64,000 nt of DNA from Escherichia coli. Its GTDB lineage: Bacteria > Pseudomonadota > Gammaproteobacteria > Enterobacterales > Enterobacteriaceae. The translations under genes were made by a program, and so were the position numbers. The notes beneath the pieces are model-generated. The model did not search any database, had not been told where the DNA came from, and saw nothing but the letters and a program-made list of their open reading frames with translations. Location of the stretch: assembly GCF_030013595.1 (NCBI RefSeq), contig NZ_CP122768.1; one strand, written 5' to 3'. How positions within the stretch are numbered: the stretch's first letter is position 1; each line of letters starts with the position of its first letter. Shown in pieces: positions 1,811-32,784 of this stretch.

Positions 1811-1820
1811 TTAACGCAGA

Positions 1821-1848
1821 AGGCCTGGCGCAATGTCAGGCCTTTTTT
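1821..1848 (+). terminator. Rho-independent terminator of aqpZ (AGGCCTG stem, CAGGCCT partner, T-run)
   Basis: Inverted repeat aggcctg/caggcct followed by TTTTTT immediately after the aqpZ stop. Confidence 0.6.
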
Positions 1849-2293
1849 AAATATATTGATTCATCTTCCTGTTGCGCTCCTTGATGTGTTAAGCCACATA
1901 TAGTCACTGGCGCAGGGAGCGCGCAGGGGGCGGCCAATCGCCGCCGCCCCCTGCACCCCCGGGCTCTGGCGAACAAAATCGCCGCTGCGCGGTGCCCTCG
2001 ACTTATCCCTTGCGGCTACCGGGTCGGGCGCGAGGTAACATCCCTGTAAAACGCGCCCTCAGCCCACATCCATGTGGGCTGCCCCGGCCTTCAGGGAACG
2101 CCTCGGCGATTTTGACGCCACCAACACCGGTGCGGTTTGTAATTAAAGCGCAAGAATATCTTTAAATGAAAATGAATACCCTACCGATCCTTATGCATAA
2201 CATTTCCTTTTAATTGCAACTTTACTCGTCCTTCCGCTTTCAGTAGTGTGTCATCGCGCATTTCGACTTCATCTTTGCAAGGACTGGGTTTTC

Positions 2294-3193
2294 ATGTTTT
2301 CTGGGCTGTTAATCATTCTGGTTCCCCTGATTGTGGGTTACCTCATTCCTCTTCGCCAAAAAGCTGCATTAAGAGTTATTAATCAGCTATTAAGCTGGAT
2401 GGTTTACCTCATTCTCTTTTTTATGGGTATCAGTCTGGCGTTTCTCGATAACCTCGCCAGTAACCTGTTGGCGATTCTGCATTATTCCGCCGTCAGCATT
2501 ACCATTATTTTACTCTGCAATATTATTGCGTTGTTGTGGCTGGAGCGCGGTCTGCCGTGGCGCAACCACCACCAGCAAGAAAAACTCCCGTCGCGTATTG
2601 CGATGGCGCTGGAGTCGCTAAAACTGTGCGGCGTAGTAGTGATTGGTTTTGCCATTGGTCTGAGTGGACTGGCTTTCTTACAACACGCGACCGAAGCCAG
2701 TGAATACACCTTAATTCTGCTACTTTTCCTCGTCGGTATTCAGTTGCGCAATAATGGCATGACCTTAAAGCAGATTGTCCTTAATCGCCGAGGAATGATT
2801 GTCGCCGTGGTGGTGGTTGCCAGTTCATTAATTGGTGGTTTAATTAACGCCTTTATTCTTGATCTACCCATCAATACCGCGCTGGCAATGGCCTCCGGTT
2901 TCGGCTGGTATTCTCTTTCCGGTATTTTATTGACCGAATCTTTTGGTCCGGTAATCGGGAGCGCAGCGTTTTTTAATGATCTGGCCCGTGAGCTGATTGC
3001 TATTATGTTGATTCCTGGGCTGATTCGCCGCAGCCGCTCTACCGCACTGGGCTTATGCGGTGCGACGTCGATGGATTTCACCCTGCCCGTTCTTCAACGT
3101 ACTGGCGGGCTGGATATGGTCCCGGCGGCAATTGTTCACGGTTTTATTCTTAGCCTGTTAGTGCCGATCCTCATCGCCTTTTTCTCTGCATAA
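2294..3193 (+). CDS. lysO: Lysine exporter LysO (YbjE)
   Basis: ORF 2246..3193; internal Met at +48 gives MFSGLLIILVPLIVGYLIPLRQ..., 299 aa, matching YbjE. Confidence 0.95.
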   Translation: MFSGLLIILVPLIVGYLIPLRQKAALRVINQLLSWMVYLILFFMGISLAFLDNLASNLLAILHYSAVSITIILLCNIIALLWLERGLPWRNHHQQEKLPSRIAMALESLKLCGVVVIGFAIGLSGLAFLQHATEASEYTLILLLFLVGIQLRNNGMTLKQIVLNRRGMIVAVVVVASSLIGGLINAFILDLPINTALAMASGFGWYSLSGILLTESFGPVIGSAAFFNDLARELIAIMLIPGLIRRSRSTALGLCGATSMDFTLPVLQRTGGLDMVPAAIVHGFILSLLVPILIAFFSA

Positions 3194-27931: not shown

Positions 27932-29140
27932 TCATAATTTCCCCAAAACGTAACCATGTGTGAATAGATTTTGAGTAAGCAGGGTTGCAGCCACGAGTGA
28001 GTCTTCCCTTGTTATTGTGTAGCCAGAATGCCGCAAAACTTCCATGCCTAAGCGAACTGTTGAGAGTACGTTTCGATTTCTGACTGTGTTAGCCTGGAAG
28101 TGCTTGTCCCAACCTTGTTTCTGAGCATGAACGCCCGCAAGCCAACATGTTAGTTGAAGCATCAGGGCGATTAGCAGCATGATATCAAAACGCTCTGAGC
28201 TGCTCGTTCGGCTATGGCGTAGGCCTAGTCCGTAGGCAGGACTTTTCAAGTCTCGGAAGGTTTCTTCAATCTGCATTCGCTTCGAATAGATATTAACAAG
28301 TTGTTTGGGTGTTCGAATTTCAACAGGTAAGTTAGTTGCTAGAATCCATGGCTCCTTTGCCGACGCTGAGTAGATTTTAGGTGACGGGTGGTGACAATGA
28401 GTCCGTGTCGAGCGCTGATTTTTTCGGCCTTTAGAGCGAGATTTATACAATAGAATTTGGCATGAGATTGGATTGCTTTTAGTCAGCCTCTTATAGCCTA
28501 AAGTCTTTGAGTGACTAGATGACATATCATGTAAGTTGCTGATAGGTTTCCAGTTTTCCGCTCCTAGGTCTGCATATTGTACTTTTCCTCTTACTCGACT
28601 TAACCAGTACCAACCCAGCTTCTCAACGGATTTATACCATGGCACTTTAAAGCCAGCATCACTGACAATGAGCGGTGTGGTGTTACTCGGTAGAATGCTC
28701 GCAAGGTCGGCTAGAAATTGGTCATGAGCTTTCTTTGAACATTGCTCTGAAAGCGGGAACGCTTTCTCATAAAGAGTAACAGAACGACCGTGTAGTGCGA
28801 CTGAAGCTCGCAATACCATAAGCCGTTTTTGCTCACGGATATCAGACCAGTCAACAAGTACAATGGGCATCGTATTGCCCGAACAGATAAAGCTAGCATG
28901 CCAACGGTATACAGCGAGTCGCTCTTTGTGGAGGTGACGATTACCTAACAATCGGTCGATTCGTTTGATGTTATGTTTTGTTCTCGCTTTGGTTGGCAGG
29001 TTACGGCCAAGTTCGGTAAGAGTGAGAGTTTTACAGTCAAGTAAGGCGTGGCAAGCCAACGTTAAGCTGTTGAGTCGTTTTAAGTGTAATTCGGGGCAGA
29101 ATTGGTAAAGAGAGTCGTGTAAAATATCGAGTTCGCACAT
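27932..29140 (-). CDS. IS10 transposase
   Basis: 402-aa ORF MCELDILHDSLYQFCPELHLKRLNSLTLACHALLDCKTLTLTELGRNLPTKARTKHNIKRIDRLLGNRHLHKERLAVYRWH..., matches the remembered Tn10/IS10 transposase across its length. Confidence 0.97.
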   Translation of the reverse strand: MCELDILHDSLYQFCPELHLKRLNSLTLACHALLDCKTLTLTELGRNLPTKARTKHNIKRIDRLLGNRHLHKERLAVYRWHASFICSGNTMPIVLVDWSDIREQKRLMVLRASVALHGRSVTLYEKAFPLSEQCSKKAHDQFLADLASILPSNTTPLIVSDAGFKVPWYKSVEKLGWYWLSRVRGKVQYADLGAENWKPISNLHDMSSSHSKTLGYKRLTKSNPISCQILLYKSRSKGRKNQRSTRTHCHHPSPKIYSASAKEPWILATNLPVEIRTPKQLVNIYSKRMQIEETFRDLKSPAYGLGLRHSRTSSSERFDIMLLIALMLQLTCWLAGVHAQKQGWDKHFQANTVRNRNVLSTVRLGMEVLRHSGYTITREDSLVAATLLTQNLFTHGYVLGKL

Positions 29141-29201
29141 TTTGTTGTCTGATTATTGATTTTTGGCGAAACCATTTGATCATATGACAAGATGTGTATC
29201 T
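29133..29201 (+). ncRNA. IS10 RNA-OUT antisense RNA (pOUT transcript), position inferred from the IS10 map
   Basis: Established IS10 biology places pOUT about 115 bp inside the outside end, reading outward across the transposase start at 29138-29140; coordinates come from the known map, not from a motif search. Confidence 0.5.
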
Positions 29202-29247
29202 ACCTTAACTTAATGATTTTGATAAAAATCATTAGGGGATTCATCAG

Positions 29248-32686: not shown

Positions 32687-32765
32687 GCCACTGCTTTTCT
32701 TTGATGTCCCCATTTTGTGGAGCCCATCAACCCCGCCATTTCGGTTCAAGGTTGGTGGGTTTTTT
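32687..32765 (+). ncRNA. rybB: RybB small RNA (sigma-E-dependent, Hfq-binding regulator of outer-membrane protein mRNAs)
   Basis: GCCACTGCTTTTCTTTGATGTCCCCATTTTGTGGAGCCCATCAACCCCGCCATTTCGGTTCAAGGTTGGTGGGTTTTTT matches remembered RybB including the 3' hairpin and U-tail; lies in the ybjL-rcdA intergenic region as in K-12. Confidence 0.85.
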
Positions 32766-32784
32766 GTTATCTAAAACTTATCTA

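What the first reader, a model, noticed from the sequence alone, without database searches (positions are those of the whole stretch)
1900..2130. GC-rich, highly structured ~230-bp element between the aqpZ terminator and lysO
Within an otherwise AT-rich intergenic region there is a block that looks roughly 70% GC, containing a perfect 12-bp GC stem (GCAGGGGGCGGC / GCCGCCCCCTGC at about 1923-1954), a second 10-bp inverted repeat (CAGCCCACAT / ATGTGGGCTG at about 2060-2081) and a long-range 10-bp complementarity (AAAATCGCCG at about 1975-1984 with CGGCGATTTT at about 2104-2113). It does not match the REP or ERIC consensus as I remember them. It could be a repetitive extragenic element, a structured RNA, or part of a long lysO leader.
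Basis: seen in the sequence. Interest (0 to 1): 0.3.

Follow-up and report, generated by a model that had tools for sequence, protein, structure and literature searches.

The report
Known E. coli TRIP1a/RRS-lysO repeat
The GC-rich block between aqpZ and lysO is the already described E. coli repeat TRIP1a, also called RRS-lysO, a folded DNA element shown in published experiments to leave single-stranded gaps behind the replication fork.

Summary
The block is not unique, and it is not a lysO leader. It is one copy of a dispersed enterobacterial repeat found in 5425 of 5426 complete E. coli genomes (median 3 places, up to 10). Copies also occur in Klebsiella (up to 13 per chromosome), E. albertii, Pseudocitrobacter and Kluyvera.

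Position, sequence and an exact 20-nt G-quadruplex motif (minus strand 1960-1941) identify it as TRIP1a (Rudd 1999; Li 2024), also called RRS-lysO (Pham 2023, 2024; Kusi-Appauh 2026). Published experiments show that the element makes the lagging-strand polymerase skip, leaving gaps of up to 2 kb.

New here:
- 29 distinct copies keep a 75-pair fold (98.9% of cells paired; 17 pairs with compensatory changes).
- Wobble pairs favour the G-rich strand.
- Both inner hairpin loops keep CA-N-GGA-Y-G invariant.
- That inner domain is the top but sub-threshold Rfam match to the orphan TwoAYGGAY motif (23-37 bits; cut-off 43).
- Natural alleles invert the element or delete its hairpins.

Verdict: already known, modest interest.

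The parts
1820..1850 (+). aqpZ terminator-like hairpin (AAGGCCTG / CAGGCCTT) followed by a T run. It is not part of the repeat and marks its upstream neighbour.
   Evidence: Inverted repeat I14; sequence. The consensus scan did not call it. It is absent from the inverted allele in O157:H7.
1870..2143 (-). TRIP1a core element, the unit conserved between copies at different loci and in different genera. The strand given is the G-rich (G-quadruplex) strand.
   Evidence: Alignments. The boundaries TG|TTGCGCTCC ... GGTGCGGTTTGTAA are shared by the forward and inverted alleles. Li et al. place TRIP1a (266 bp) 70 bp after the aqpZ stop and 158 bp before the ybjE start.
1904..2126 (-). Approximate extent of the 222-bp RRS-lysO repeat, the part nearly identical to the dusC copy.
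   Evidence: Near-identity of the window to the yohP-dusC copy in L002. 222-bp definition from Pham et al.. The edges here are my estimate from the alignment.
1941..1960 (-). Published G-quadruplex-forming 20-mer, 5'-GGGGGTGCAGGGGGCGGCGG-3'.
   Evidence: Exact and unique match in the window. The motif is quoted in PMC11194060.
1923..1954 (-). Perfect 12-bp GC hairpin (helix 11). Its arm on the G-rich strand overlaps the G-quadruplex motif.
   Evidence: I3. 12 pairs, 3 with compensatory changes, 99.7% of cells paired.
1874..1922 (-). Terminal hairpin (helix 12: GCGCTCCT 1874-1881 with GGGAGCGC 1915-1922). It encloses a poorly conserved AT-rich loop of about 33 nt.
   Evidence: I13; 8 pairs, 2 with compensatory changes.
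1974..2114 (-). Central domain: a long interrupted outer stem (1974-1989 / 2099-2114 and inner helices) closing two adjacent hairpins. This is the TwoAYGGAY-like region.
   Evidence: I1; helices 2-9. Rfam RF01731 hit 2115-1976 on the minus strand, 29.8 bits, E 0.015, below the 43-bit cut-off.
2060..2081 (-). Inner hairpin 1. The loop region on the minus strand is CAUGGAUG (2074-2067).
   Evidence: I8. Helix 7: 9 pairs, 3 with compensatory changes. The loop letters C,A,G,G,A,T,G are invariant in 29 copies.
2026..2058 (-). Inner hairpin 2 (GGGCGCG 2026-2032 / CGCGCCC 2052-2058). The tip on the minus strand is ACAGGGAUGU (2047-2038).
   Evidence: Helices 8-9. Direct repeat D4, ACATCCCTGT / ACATCCATGT. 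CA-GGA-G is invariant.
2112..2143 (+). Promoter-like pair TTGACG-N20-TGTAAT at the lysO-proximal end of the element, pointing towards lysO.
   Evidence: one match; 0.05 expected. Listed as the ybjE 'constitutive promoter' TTGACG-19-TGTAAT from genomic SELEX in PMC3946193. The stricter consensus scan did not call it.
2294..3193 (+). lysO (ybjE) coding sequence, the downstream neighbour. It is not part of the element.
   Evidence: ORF. K-12 annotation gives lysO as 900 bp.

Best explanation
The block is the TRIP1a copy of the TRIP1 repeat family, the same element that Pham, Cox, Goodman and colleagues named RRS-lysO (replication risk sequence). It acts as DNA.

When the fork unwinds it, the G-rich strand folds quickly into a very stable structure. 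Here that strand is the window's minus strand, which is the lagging-strand template. The published work stresses a G-quadruplex at GGGGGTGCAGGGGGCGGCGG. My covariation data add an extended set of hairpins on the same strand. The fold blocks completion of an Okazaki fragment, so the replisome skips ahead. This leaves a post-replication gap of up to about 2 kb that is coated by SSB and RecA.

Together with the inverted partner copy near dusC, about 650 kb on the other side of dif, the gaps are proposed to act as transient swivels at the borders of the Ter macrodomain.

Status of each step:
- Shown here: identity, copy number, orientation, conserved fold.
- Shown by others on the K-12 copy (97.6% identical): polymerase block, gap formation, conditional essentiality, effect on supercoiling.
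- Inferred: that this strain's copy behaves the same way, and that the hairpin fold, not only the G-quadruplex, contributes.
For: Identity:
- The element lies between aqpZ and lysO.
- It is 97.6% identical over 245 nt to K-12 strains (H9/H10), and 95.7% over 280 nt including the edges (L001).
- The published G4 20-mer is present exactly once, on the minus strand at 1941-1960 (motif).
- Rudd's TRIP1a is described as lying 31 bp after the aqpZ terminator.
- Pham et al. state that RRS = TRIP1.

Orientation:
- The window plus strand has a GC skew of -0.027 over 64 kb.
- The locus maps at about 0.9 Mb on the minus strand of standard-orientation genomes.
- So the G-rich strand is the lagging-strand template, as published for RRS-lysO.

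Partner copy: a copy lies between yohP and dusC.

Fold:
- 75 pairs, 98.9% of cells paired, 17 pairs with compensatory changes.
- Shuffled controls give a mean of 9.5, with 0 of 500 reaching 17. Slid-register controls give 0-2.
- Among the 59 pairs predicted on both strands, G.U occurs at 8 positions and A.C at 1. This favours the G-rich strand as the one that folds.

Published function:
- Pol I, II and IV stop at the G4 in vitro.
- RecA/SSB peaks on the lagging strand disappear when the RRS is deleted.
- Both RRS cannot be deleted cleanly.
- Psoralen mapping shows changed supercoiling.
- Single-molecule assays show gaps at essentially every replisome passage.
Against: - The family as a whole does not keep the 'G-rich strand on the lagging template' rule. 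TRIP1b in K-12 and TRIP1d have the G-rich strand on the leading-strand template.
- About 26% of complete E. coli genomes carry this locus inverted or inverted and shortened. Li et al. report 1255 of 4703 reversed.
- The ST131 allele lacks 75 bp, which is both inner hairpins. Other strains lack about 137 bp. The full structure is therefore dispensable at this locus in successful lineages.
- Most copies have no canonical four-tract G3+ quadruplex motif. In two Klebsiella copies a G-to-A change inside a G5 run is matched by C-to-T in the hairpin partner, so selection there tracks the hairpin rather than the G run.
- The invariant loop motif CA-N-GGA-Y-G in two hairpins is not explained by a simple roadblock model.
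- Klebsiella carries 6-13 copies, which is hard to reconcile with a two-site Ter-flanking device.
Confidence: 0.75

Rival explanations
1. The element encodes, or is part of, a structured non-coding RNA read from the minus strand, related to the orphan TwoAYGGAY RNA motif. The two conserved hairpin loops would be binding sites for a protein or another RNA.
For: - RF01731 is the top Rfam hit for the central domain, always on the G-rich strand and in the same register: window 29.8 bits (E 0.015), E. albertii 36.9 (E 0.0047), L018 30.2 and 29.8, L046 26.6, and a Klebsiella copy 23.3 for the two-hairpin core.
- The architecture matches: a long closing stem and two adjacent hairpins with loops ACAUGGAUGU and ACAGGGAUGU. 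The same decamers occur in canonical Psychromonas members.
- The stems covary while the loops are invariant, and G.U exceeds A.C on this strand.
- Li et al. also suggested that the element may be transcribed.
Against: - All scores are below Rfam's own 43-bit cut-off. Two O157-type copies gave no hit at E<=10.
- No sigma-70-like promoter or intrinsic terminator was found on either strand of 1700-2400, and none lies inside the conserved unit.
- Orientation relative to neighbouring genes is inconsistent: antisense to aqpZ here, sense to dusC in K-12, and inverted in other strains.
- Covariation and G.T tolerance are equally expected for folded single-stranded DNA.
- No expression data were examined.
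- The DNA-level effect is shown experimentally with purified polymerases and replisomes.
Confidence: 0.12
2. It is essentially a selfish or neutral dispersed repeat, like a miniature mobile element or a relic of one. The fold would serve its own spread or persistence. Its main consequence for the host would be as a substrate for homologous recombination and large inversions. Replication gaps would be a side effect.
For: - Copy number varies from 1 to 10 in E. coli and up to 13 in Klebsiella.
- Copies sit in gene-poor spots, just after stop codons or between convergent genes.
- The same spacer can hold the element in either orientation, a shortened form, or a different repeat altogether.
- Recurrent internal deletions occur between short direct repeats.
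- There are 156 documented rearrangements between copies, including a 1.3-Mb inversion.
Against: - No colinear terminal inverted repeats, no target-site duplication and no clean empty site were found.
- No match was found in 50,697 phage records. The 'plasmid' records with hits are mislabelled chromosomes or carry chromosomal genes.
- In E. coli 99% of copies occupy only five fixed loci.
- At least one RRS is reported as conditionally essential.
- Every complete genome but one keeps at least one copy.
Confidence: 0.2
3. It is a cis-regulatory part of lysO: a long structured leader, or a carrier of the lysO promoter.
For: - It ends 150 nt before the lysO start codon.
- A genomic-SELEX study assigns a constitutive sigma-70 promoter, TTGACG-19-TGTAAT, to ybjE. 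That site is window 2112-2143, inside the element's right end.
Against: - With that promoter the transcript would start after the element, so the element is not in the leader.
- The 20-nt spacer is poor, and the consensus scan did not call the site.
- The TTGACG/TGTAAT pair is not kept in the dusC or Klebsiella copies.
- The element is inverted or truncated at this locus in a quarter of strains, with lysO intact.
- No riboswitch or leader family reaches Rfam's cut-off in the window.
Confidence: 0.05

Closest known systems
TRIP1 repeats (Rudd 1999; Li et al. 2024, PMC10888264), also called RRS, replication risk sequences (Pham et al. 2023 PMC10287960; 2024 PMC11194060; Kusi-Appauh et al. 2026 bioRxiv 10.64898/2026.06.16.732529)
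   Same: Same locus, same sequence (97.6% to K-12), same G4 20-mer, same orientation to replication, and the same partner near dusC. This is that element.
   Different: Nothing essential. This strain's copy differs from K-12 by a few substitutions in the core, and its AT-rich left flank is about 11 bp shorter.
TwoAYGGAY RNA motif (Rfam RF01731; Weinberg et al. 2010, PMC2864571)
   Same: A long closing stem encloses two adjacent hairpins whose loops carry A-N-GGA-Y. The decamers ACAUGGAUGU and ACAGGGA(U/C)GU are shared. The canonical motif is multi-copy in a gamma-proteobacterium (Psychromonas), so it also behaves as a repeat. It is the top Rfam hit, on a consistent strand.
   Different: Scores of 23-37 bits are below the 43-bit gathering score. 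In this copy the second loop is AGGGAU rather than AYGGAY. TRIP1 has two extra hairpins, including the G-quadruplex hairpin, outside the motif. It is GC-rich, whereas the Psychromonas members are AT-rich. Neither literature links the two.
REP/BIME and ERIC (IRU) extragenic repeats of enterobacteria
   Same: Intergenic, palindromic, GC-rich relative to the flanks, often after stop codons, and able to form hairpins.
   Different: TRIP1 is about 270 bp and present in 1-13 copies. By my recollection REP is about 35 bp in hundreds of copies and ERIC about 127 bp; mentions about 300 BIMEs. No sequence similarity was seen. The only REP-derived Rfam family (naRNA4) hit a flank of a Klebsiella copy, not the element.
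Neisseria gonorrhoeae pilE G-quadruplex
   Same: Cited by Pham et al. as the other bacterial G-quadruplex that triggers gap formation.
   Different: It is a short canonical G4 that serves antigenic variation. It is not a 270-bp multi-hairpin repeat flanking the terminus.

Membership tests
TRIP1a / RRS-lysO | Lies in the aqpZ-lysO (ybjE) spacer, just after the aqpZ terminator. | tested here: met
   aqpZ 1109-1810, terminator-like hairpin 1820-1850, element 1870-2143, lysO from 2294. Literature positions.
TRIP1a / RRS-lysO | High sequence identity to the K-12 element. | tested here: met
   97.6% over 245 nt to K-12 strains (H9/H10). 95.7% over 280 nt to MG1655 L001.
TRIP1a / RRS-lysO | Carries the G4-forming sequence 5'-GGGGGTGCAGGGGGCGGCGG-3' on one strand only. 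| tested here: met
   One exact match, minus strand 1941-1960. No other match within 3 mismatches in 64 kb.
TRIP1a / RRS-lysO | The G4 strand is the lagging-strand template. | tested here: met
   Window plus-strand GC skew is -0.027 over 64 kb. The locus is on the minus strand at about 0.9 Mb of standard-orientation genomes. This is inferred from skew and synteny, not from a mapped origin.
TRIP1a / RRS-lysO | Inverted partner copy near dusC, about 1.3 Mb away and symmetric about dif. | not testable with these tools
   It lies outside the 64-kb window. The partner exists in other strains (L002) and the locus is present in K-12. A strain 100% identical over the element has 6 places (H1).
TRIP1a / RRS-lysO | Triggers lagging-strand post-replication gaps bound by RecA and SSB. 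| not testable with these tools
   Experimental property, shown for the K-12 copy.
TwoAYGGAY RNA (RF01731) | Scores at or above Rfam's gathering threshold (43 bits). | tested here: not met
   Window 29.8 bits. The best relative (E. albertii) scores 36.9. A Klebsiella copy scores 23.3 for the core only. The O157-type copies gave no hit.
TwoAYGGAY RNA (RF01731) | Two terminal loops, each with AYGGAY. | tested here: inconclusive
   Loop 1 is AUGGAU, which fits. Loop 2 is AGGGAU in this copy (R instead of Y), but ACGGAC or AUGGAC in some Klebsiella copies. Canonical members also include AGGGAC/AGGGAU.
TwoAYGGAY RNA (RF01731) | Large P1 stem closing the two hairpins. | tested here: met
   Helices 2-6 give 29 pairs around the two hairpins. 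Weinberg et al. describe P1 as often about 24 bp.
TwoAYGGAY RNA (RF01731) | Is an RNA, that is, transcribed. | not testable with these tools
   No expression data are available here. No promoter or terminator consensus was found.
Miniature transposable element (MITE) | Terminal inverted repeats and a target-site duplication; filled and empty sites. | tested here: inconclusive
   The AT-rich flank repeats I5 and I12 are not colinear. The K-12 alx-sstT 'empty' site holds a different repeat, so no junction could be read.
Riboswitch or 5' leader of lysO | Match to a known cis-regulatory RNA family on the lysO sense strand, and fixed orientation upstream of the gene. | tested here: not met
   No plus-strand hit of note. 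Only RybB and RNA-OUT reach the cut-off in the window. The element is inverted in about 26% of genomes.

The most novel reading that the evidence does not exclude
The central two-hairpin domain of TRIP1/RRS may be a diverged member of the orphan TwoAYGGAY class, or recognised by the same unknown factor. The invariant CA-N-GGA-Y-G loops would then be specific recognition sites. Two consequences are possible. Either the roughly 200 'TwoAYGGAY RNAs' of gut metagenomes, Clostridia and gamma-proteobacteria are really single-stranded-DNA elements of the RRS kind, or RRS elements also act through a transcript. Neither the TRIP1/RRS papers nor the Rfam literature makes this link.
Probability: 0.2. Interest if true: 0.6.

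Novelty: already known. Interest (0 to 1): 0.3.

Why it matters
The element itself matters. It is one of only two bacterial sequences reported to programme gap formation behind the fork, and at least one copy is reported to be conditionally essential. That is already published, so re-finding it adds nothing new in kind.

The additions here bear on how it works:
- The whole multi-hairpin fold is under selection across genera, not just the G-quadruplex tract, and on the same strand.
- Two hairpin loops are sequence-invariant, which suggests recognition by a factor.
- Natural alleles invert the element, delete the hairpins, or place the G-rich strand on the leading template. These are ready-made tests of the published model.
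- A possible link to the TwoAYGGAY motif would give that orphan motif a testable function.

Tried and rejected
- Second copy inside the 64-kb window: none. Only the self match and its internal palindromes were found.
- Phage origin: no blastn match in the phage collection.
- Plasmid carriage: the 34 'plasmid' records with hits are E. coli or Klebsiella chromosomes or chromosome fragments labelled as plasmids, for example 4.9-5.4 Mb records, or records carrying aqpZ-lysO, ldtB or ABC-F genes.
- Coding potential: the ORFs in the block (57 aa plus strand 1992-2165; 46 and 31 aa minus strand) are not credible. Copies differ by single-base indels.
- Clean empty site to read insertion junctions: the K-12 alx-sstT spacer turned out to hold another repeat.
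- Rfam on five whole loci at once gave nothing, because the filters tighten with more sequence. Short stretches were needed.
- The genome-wide pattern scan returned 59 stretches, about half of them chance matches in GC-rich genomes. These were discarded after blastn.
- Canonical G3+ x4 quadruplex search: absent from nearly all copies. The published G4 is a non-canonical G5/G5/GG/GG motif.
- Literature search for a mapped lysO transcription start found nothing usable.

Full report
**What is in the sequence.**
The window is E. coli: ybjD (minus), aqpZ (1109-1810), lysO (2294-3193), then hcp and hcr. Between aqpZ and lysO, GC content in 60-nt windows rises to 0.60-0.77 from 1880 to 2139 and falls to 0.30-0.45 on both sides.

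- 1923-1934 / 1943-1954: 12 bp, perfect.
- 2060-2069 / 2072-2081: 10 bp, perfect.
- 1974-1989 / 2099-2114: 16 nt at 88%, containing the 10-bp perfect core.

Either strand of 1870-2143 folds about 6-7 standard deviations better than dinucleotide shuffles.

**It is a dispersed repeat.**
- A blastn search of 1895-2140 finds the element in 5425 of 5426 complete E. coli genomes. The median is 3 places per genome and the maximum is 10.
- The 64-kb window itself holds no second copy.
- A second locus lies between yohP and dusC.
- Klebsiella chromosomes carry up to 13 copies. K. pneumoniae ATCC 13883 has at least 6.
- Copies also occur in E. albertii, another Escherichia species, two Pseudocitrobacter species, Kluyvera georgiana and an unnamed Enterobacteriaceae genome.
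- There is no phage match.
- The 'plasmid' records with hits are chromosomes or chromosomal fragments.
- Comparing copies sets the conserved unit at about 1870-2143, from TG|TTGCGCTCC to GGTGCGGTTTGTAA. Weaker AT-rich homology extends to about 1851 and 2185.

**Identity.**
The literature search found the element under two names.
- Rudd (1999) called it TRIP1. Li et al. (2024, PMC10888264) describe five types:
  - TRIP1a: 266 bp, 70 bp after the aqpZ stop and 158 bp before ybjE.
  - TRIP1b: putP-ycdN, a short form.
  - TRIP1c: near yohI (dusC).
  - TRIP1d: alx-sstT.
  - TRIP1e: copA-ybaP.
- Pham, Cox, Goodman and colleagues found the lysO and dusC copies independently, as the two strongest RecA/SSB peaks on lagging-strand ssDNA. 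They named them RRS and state that RRS = TRIP1.

The tests I could run are all met:
- Locus.
- 97.6% identity to K-12.
- The exact published G4 20-mer, once only, on the minus strand at 1941-1960.
- Orientation with the G-rich strand as lagging-strand template, from a window plus-strand GC skew of -0.027 and synteny with K-12.

**How it most likely works.**
The published experiments on the K-12 copy show the following:
- Pol I, II and IV stop at the G4 on the G-rich strand.
- M13 replication is impaired when that strand is the template.
- RecA/SSB gaps of about 1.4-2.5 kb start at the element, and disappear when it is deleted.
- Gaps appear wherever the element is moved.
- Both RRS cannot be deleted without a compensating 200-kb amplification.
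- Deleting or inverting both changes genome-wide supercoiling.
- In a single-molecule assay, gaps form at essentially every replisome passage when the G4 strand is the lagging-strand template. They form less often, but still on the lagging strand, when the element is inverted.

I take this as the best explanation for the window's copy. The extension to this strain is an inference from near-identity and identical orientation.

**What my analysis adds.**
I aligned 29 distinct copies from Escherichia, Klebsiella, Pseudocitrobacter and others on the G-rich strand.

*Conserved fold.*
- RNAalifold predicts 75 pairs in 12 helices.
- On that structure 98.9% of cells pair, and 17 pairs show changes on both sides.
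- Shuffled controls give a mean of 9.5, with 0 of 500 reaching 17. Sliding the partners by 1-3 columns gives 0-2.
- Many of the compensatory changes are fixed differences between Escherichia and Klebsiella, so they represent few events per pair. They are nonetheless spread over 8 of the 12 helices.

*Which strand folds.*
- I folded both strands separately and kept the 59 pairs common to both predictions.
- G.U occurs at 8 positions and A.C at 1 (two-sided sign test about 0.04, my own calculation).
- This points to the G-rich strand as the one that folds. It fits a lagging-template ssDNA fold or a minus-strand RNA equally well.

*G-quadruplex versus hairpin.*
- The G4 20-mer overlaps one arm of the perfect 12-bp hairpin.
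- In two Klebsiella copies a G-to-A change inside a G5 run is compensated by C-to-T in the partner arm.
- Selection there is visibly on the hairpin.
- Most copies lack a canonical four-tract G3+ motif.

*Invariant loops.*
- Both inner hairpins keep CA-N-GGA-Y-G invariant in all 29 copies while their stems covary.
- A plain roadblock does not need that.

**The TwoAYGGAY resemblance.**

| Copy | Score (bits) | E-value |
|---|---|---|
| Window (2115-1976, minus strand) | 29.8 | 0.015 |
| E. albertii | 36.9 | 0.0047 |
| L018, copy 1 | 30.2 | 0.15 |
| L018, copy 2 | 29.8 | 0.19 |
| L046 | 26.6 | 1 |
| Klebsiella, two-hairpin core only | 23.3 | 0.11 |

- The best Rfam match to the central domain is RF01731 (TwoAYGGAY), and it recurs on the same strand in related copies.
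- All scores are below the family's 43-bit cut-off, and two O157-type copies gave no hit. By Rfam's own rule the element is not a member.
- The architecture does match: a large closing stem and two adjacent hairpins with A-N-GGA-Y loops.
- The original alignment shows that canonical members in Psychromonas ingrahamii are themselves multi-copy. They carry the same decamers, ACAUGGAUGU and ACAGGGACGU.
- None of the 12 papers that mention TwoAYGGAY is a TRIP1 or RRS paper.
- I treat this as an open lead, not a finding.

**Natural variation that tests the model.**
- At this locus 4026 of 5426 genomes have the window's arrangement or a close derivative. The rest are different.
- O157:H7 and others carry the element inverted, about 9% diverged, with different flanks and no aqpZ terminator hairpin.
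- MS1737-type strains carry that inverted form minus about 137 bp.
- ST131 carries the forward form minus 75 bp, exactly the two inner hairpins.
- Both deletions lie between short direct repeats.
- The dusC copy is inverted in place in strain E69.
- TRIP1b in K-12 and TRIP1d in strain 64A:C have the G-rich strand on the leading-strand template.
- The K-12 alx-sstT spacer holds a different repeat where TRIP1d sits in other strains.
- So the family has no fixed orientation to replication, and its inner domain is dispensable at this locus in major lineages.
- This weakens any claim that every copy is a tuned device. It keeps alive the rival view that the family is a persistent repeat whose replication effect is partly incidental.

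**Rivals.**
- *Minus-strand ncRNA.* It has the covariation, the wobble asymmetry and the Rfam lead in its favour. Against it, there is no promoter or terminator, orientation to neighbouring genes is inconsistent, and I examined no expression data.
- *lysO leader.* This is contradicted by the element's other locations and by its inversion here. The only promoter proposed for lysO, TTGACG-N19/20-TGTAAT, lies at 2112-2143 in the element's right edge, which puts the element upstream of the transcript.
- *Transposable miniature element.* This could be neither shown nor excluded. I found no colinear terminal repeats, no target duplication and no clean empty site.

**Verdict.**
The element is already known and has an experimentally supported function. 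Interest is therefore modest. The residual novelty lies in the conserved multi-hairpin fold, the invariant loops and the possible TwoAYGGAY link.

Noticed in passing
window 32690-32768 (+): RybB small RNA, 104 bits against a 40-bit cut-off. It is one of only two Rfam gathering-level hits in the 64 kb.
   Followed up: no
window 29133-29202 (+): RNA-OUT, the antisense RNA of IS10, at 97 bits. This implies an IS10/Tn10-type insertion sequence in this strain at about 29 kb. No tRNA genes occur anywhere in the window.
   Followed up: no
window 2112-2143 (+): TTGACG-N20-TGTAAT at the lysO-proximal end of the repeat matches the 'constitutive promoter' assigned to ybjE by genomic SELEX (PMC3946193). 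The repeat may therefore supply lysO's promoter in this allele. The pair is not kept in other copies.
   Followed up: partly
L010 about 600-680 (E. coli O25b:H4 ST131, aqpZ-lysO spacer): The ST131 allele lacks 75 bp, removing both inner hairpins between two TCGG repeats. The G4 hairpin and the outer ends remain.
   Followed up: partly
L008 455-728 and L011 456-725 (O157:H7 and others); L009 and L003 (shortened form): At the same spacer the element is inverted, about 9% diverged, has unrelated-looking flanks and lacks the aqpZ terminator hairpin. A derivative of this inverted form lacks about 137 bp between CCCCGG repeats.
   Followed up: partly
L072 about 2050-2240 (K-12 alx-sstT spacer) versus L006 2501-2767: Where strain 64A:C has TRIP1d, K-12 has a different GC-rich palindromic repeat (CTCCCTCTCCC...GGGAGAGGG, GGGGTGAGGG...CCCCTCACCC). 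The spacer behaves like a swappable cassette between conserved gene ends.
   Followed up: no
L071 1856-1998 (K-12 putP-efeU, TRIP1b); L006 (TRIP1d): These copies have the G-rich strand on the leading-strand template, opposite to the two RRS copies. TRIP1b also lacks the exact G4 20-mer.
   Followed up: partly
L055 1249-1522 (E. coli E69, next to dusC): The dusC copy is inverted in place relative to K-12 and L002, and no aqpZ lies beside it. So this is not the known TRIP1a/TRIP1c chromosomal inversion.
   Followed up: no
L018 5-116 and 420-691 (2.79-kb metagenome-assembled contig): Two copies in inverted orientation only about 300 bp apart. The first is cut by the contig end.
   Followed up: no
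L046 (Bacillus sp., 583-bp contig, coverage 0.7), L053 (Ensifer sp., 439-bp contig, coverage 0.67), L014 (Desulfacinum MAG): Enterobacterial TRIP1 copies appear in assemblies of unrelated organisms. This is most likely contamination or mis-binning rather than true distribution.
   Followed up: no
L004 3274-3314: A REP-like sequence lies about 50 nt beyond a Klebsiella TRIP1 copy (sub-threshold naRNA4 hit, 19.6 bits). Two kinds of extragenic repeat sit side by side.
   Followed up: no
PMC2864571 supplementary alignment, Psychromonas ingrahamii NC_008709.1: The canonical TwoAYGGAY motif occurs at five or more places in one genome, embedded in longer shared flanking sequence. The 'RNA motif' therefore behaves as a dispersed repeat there too.
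   Followed up: partly
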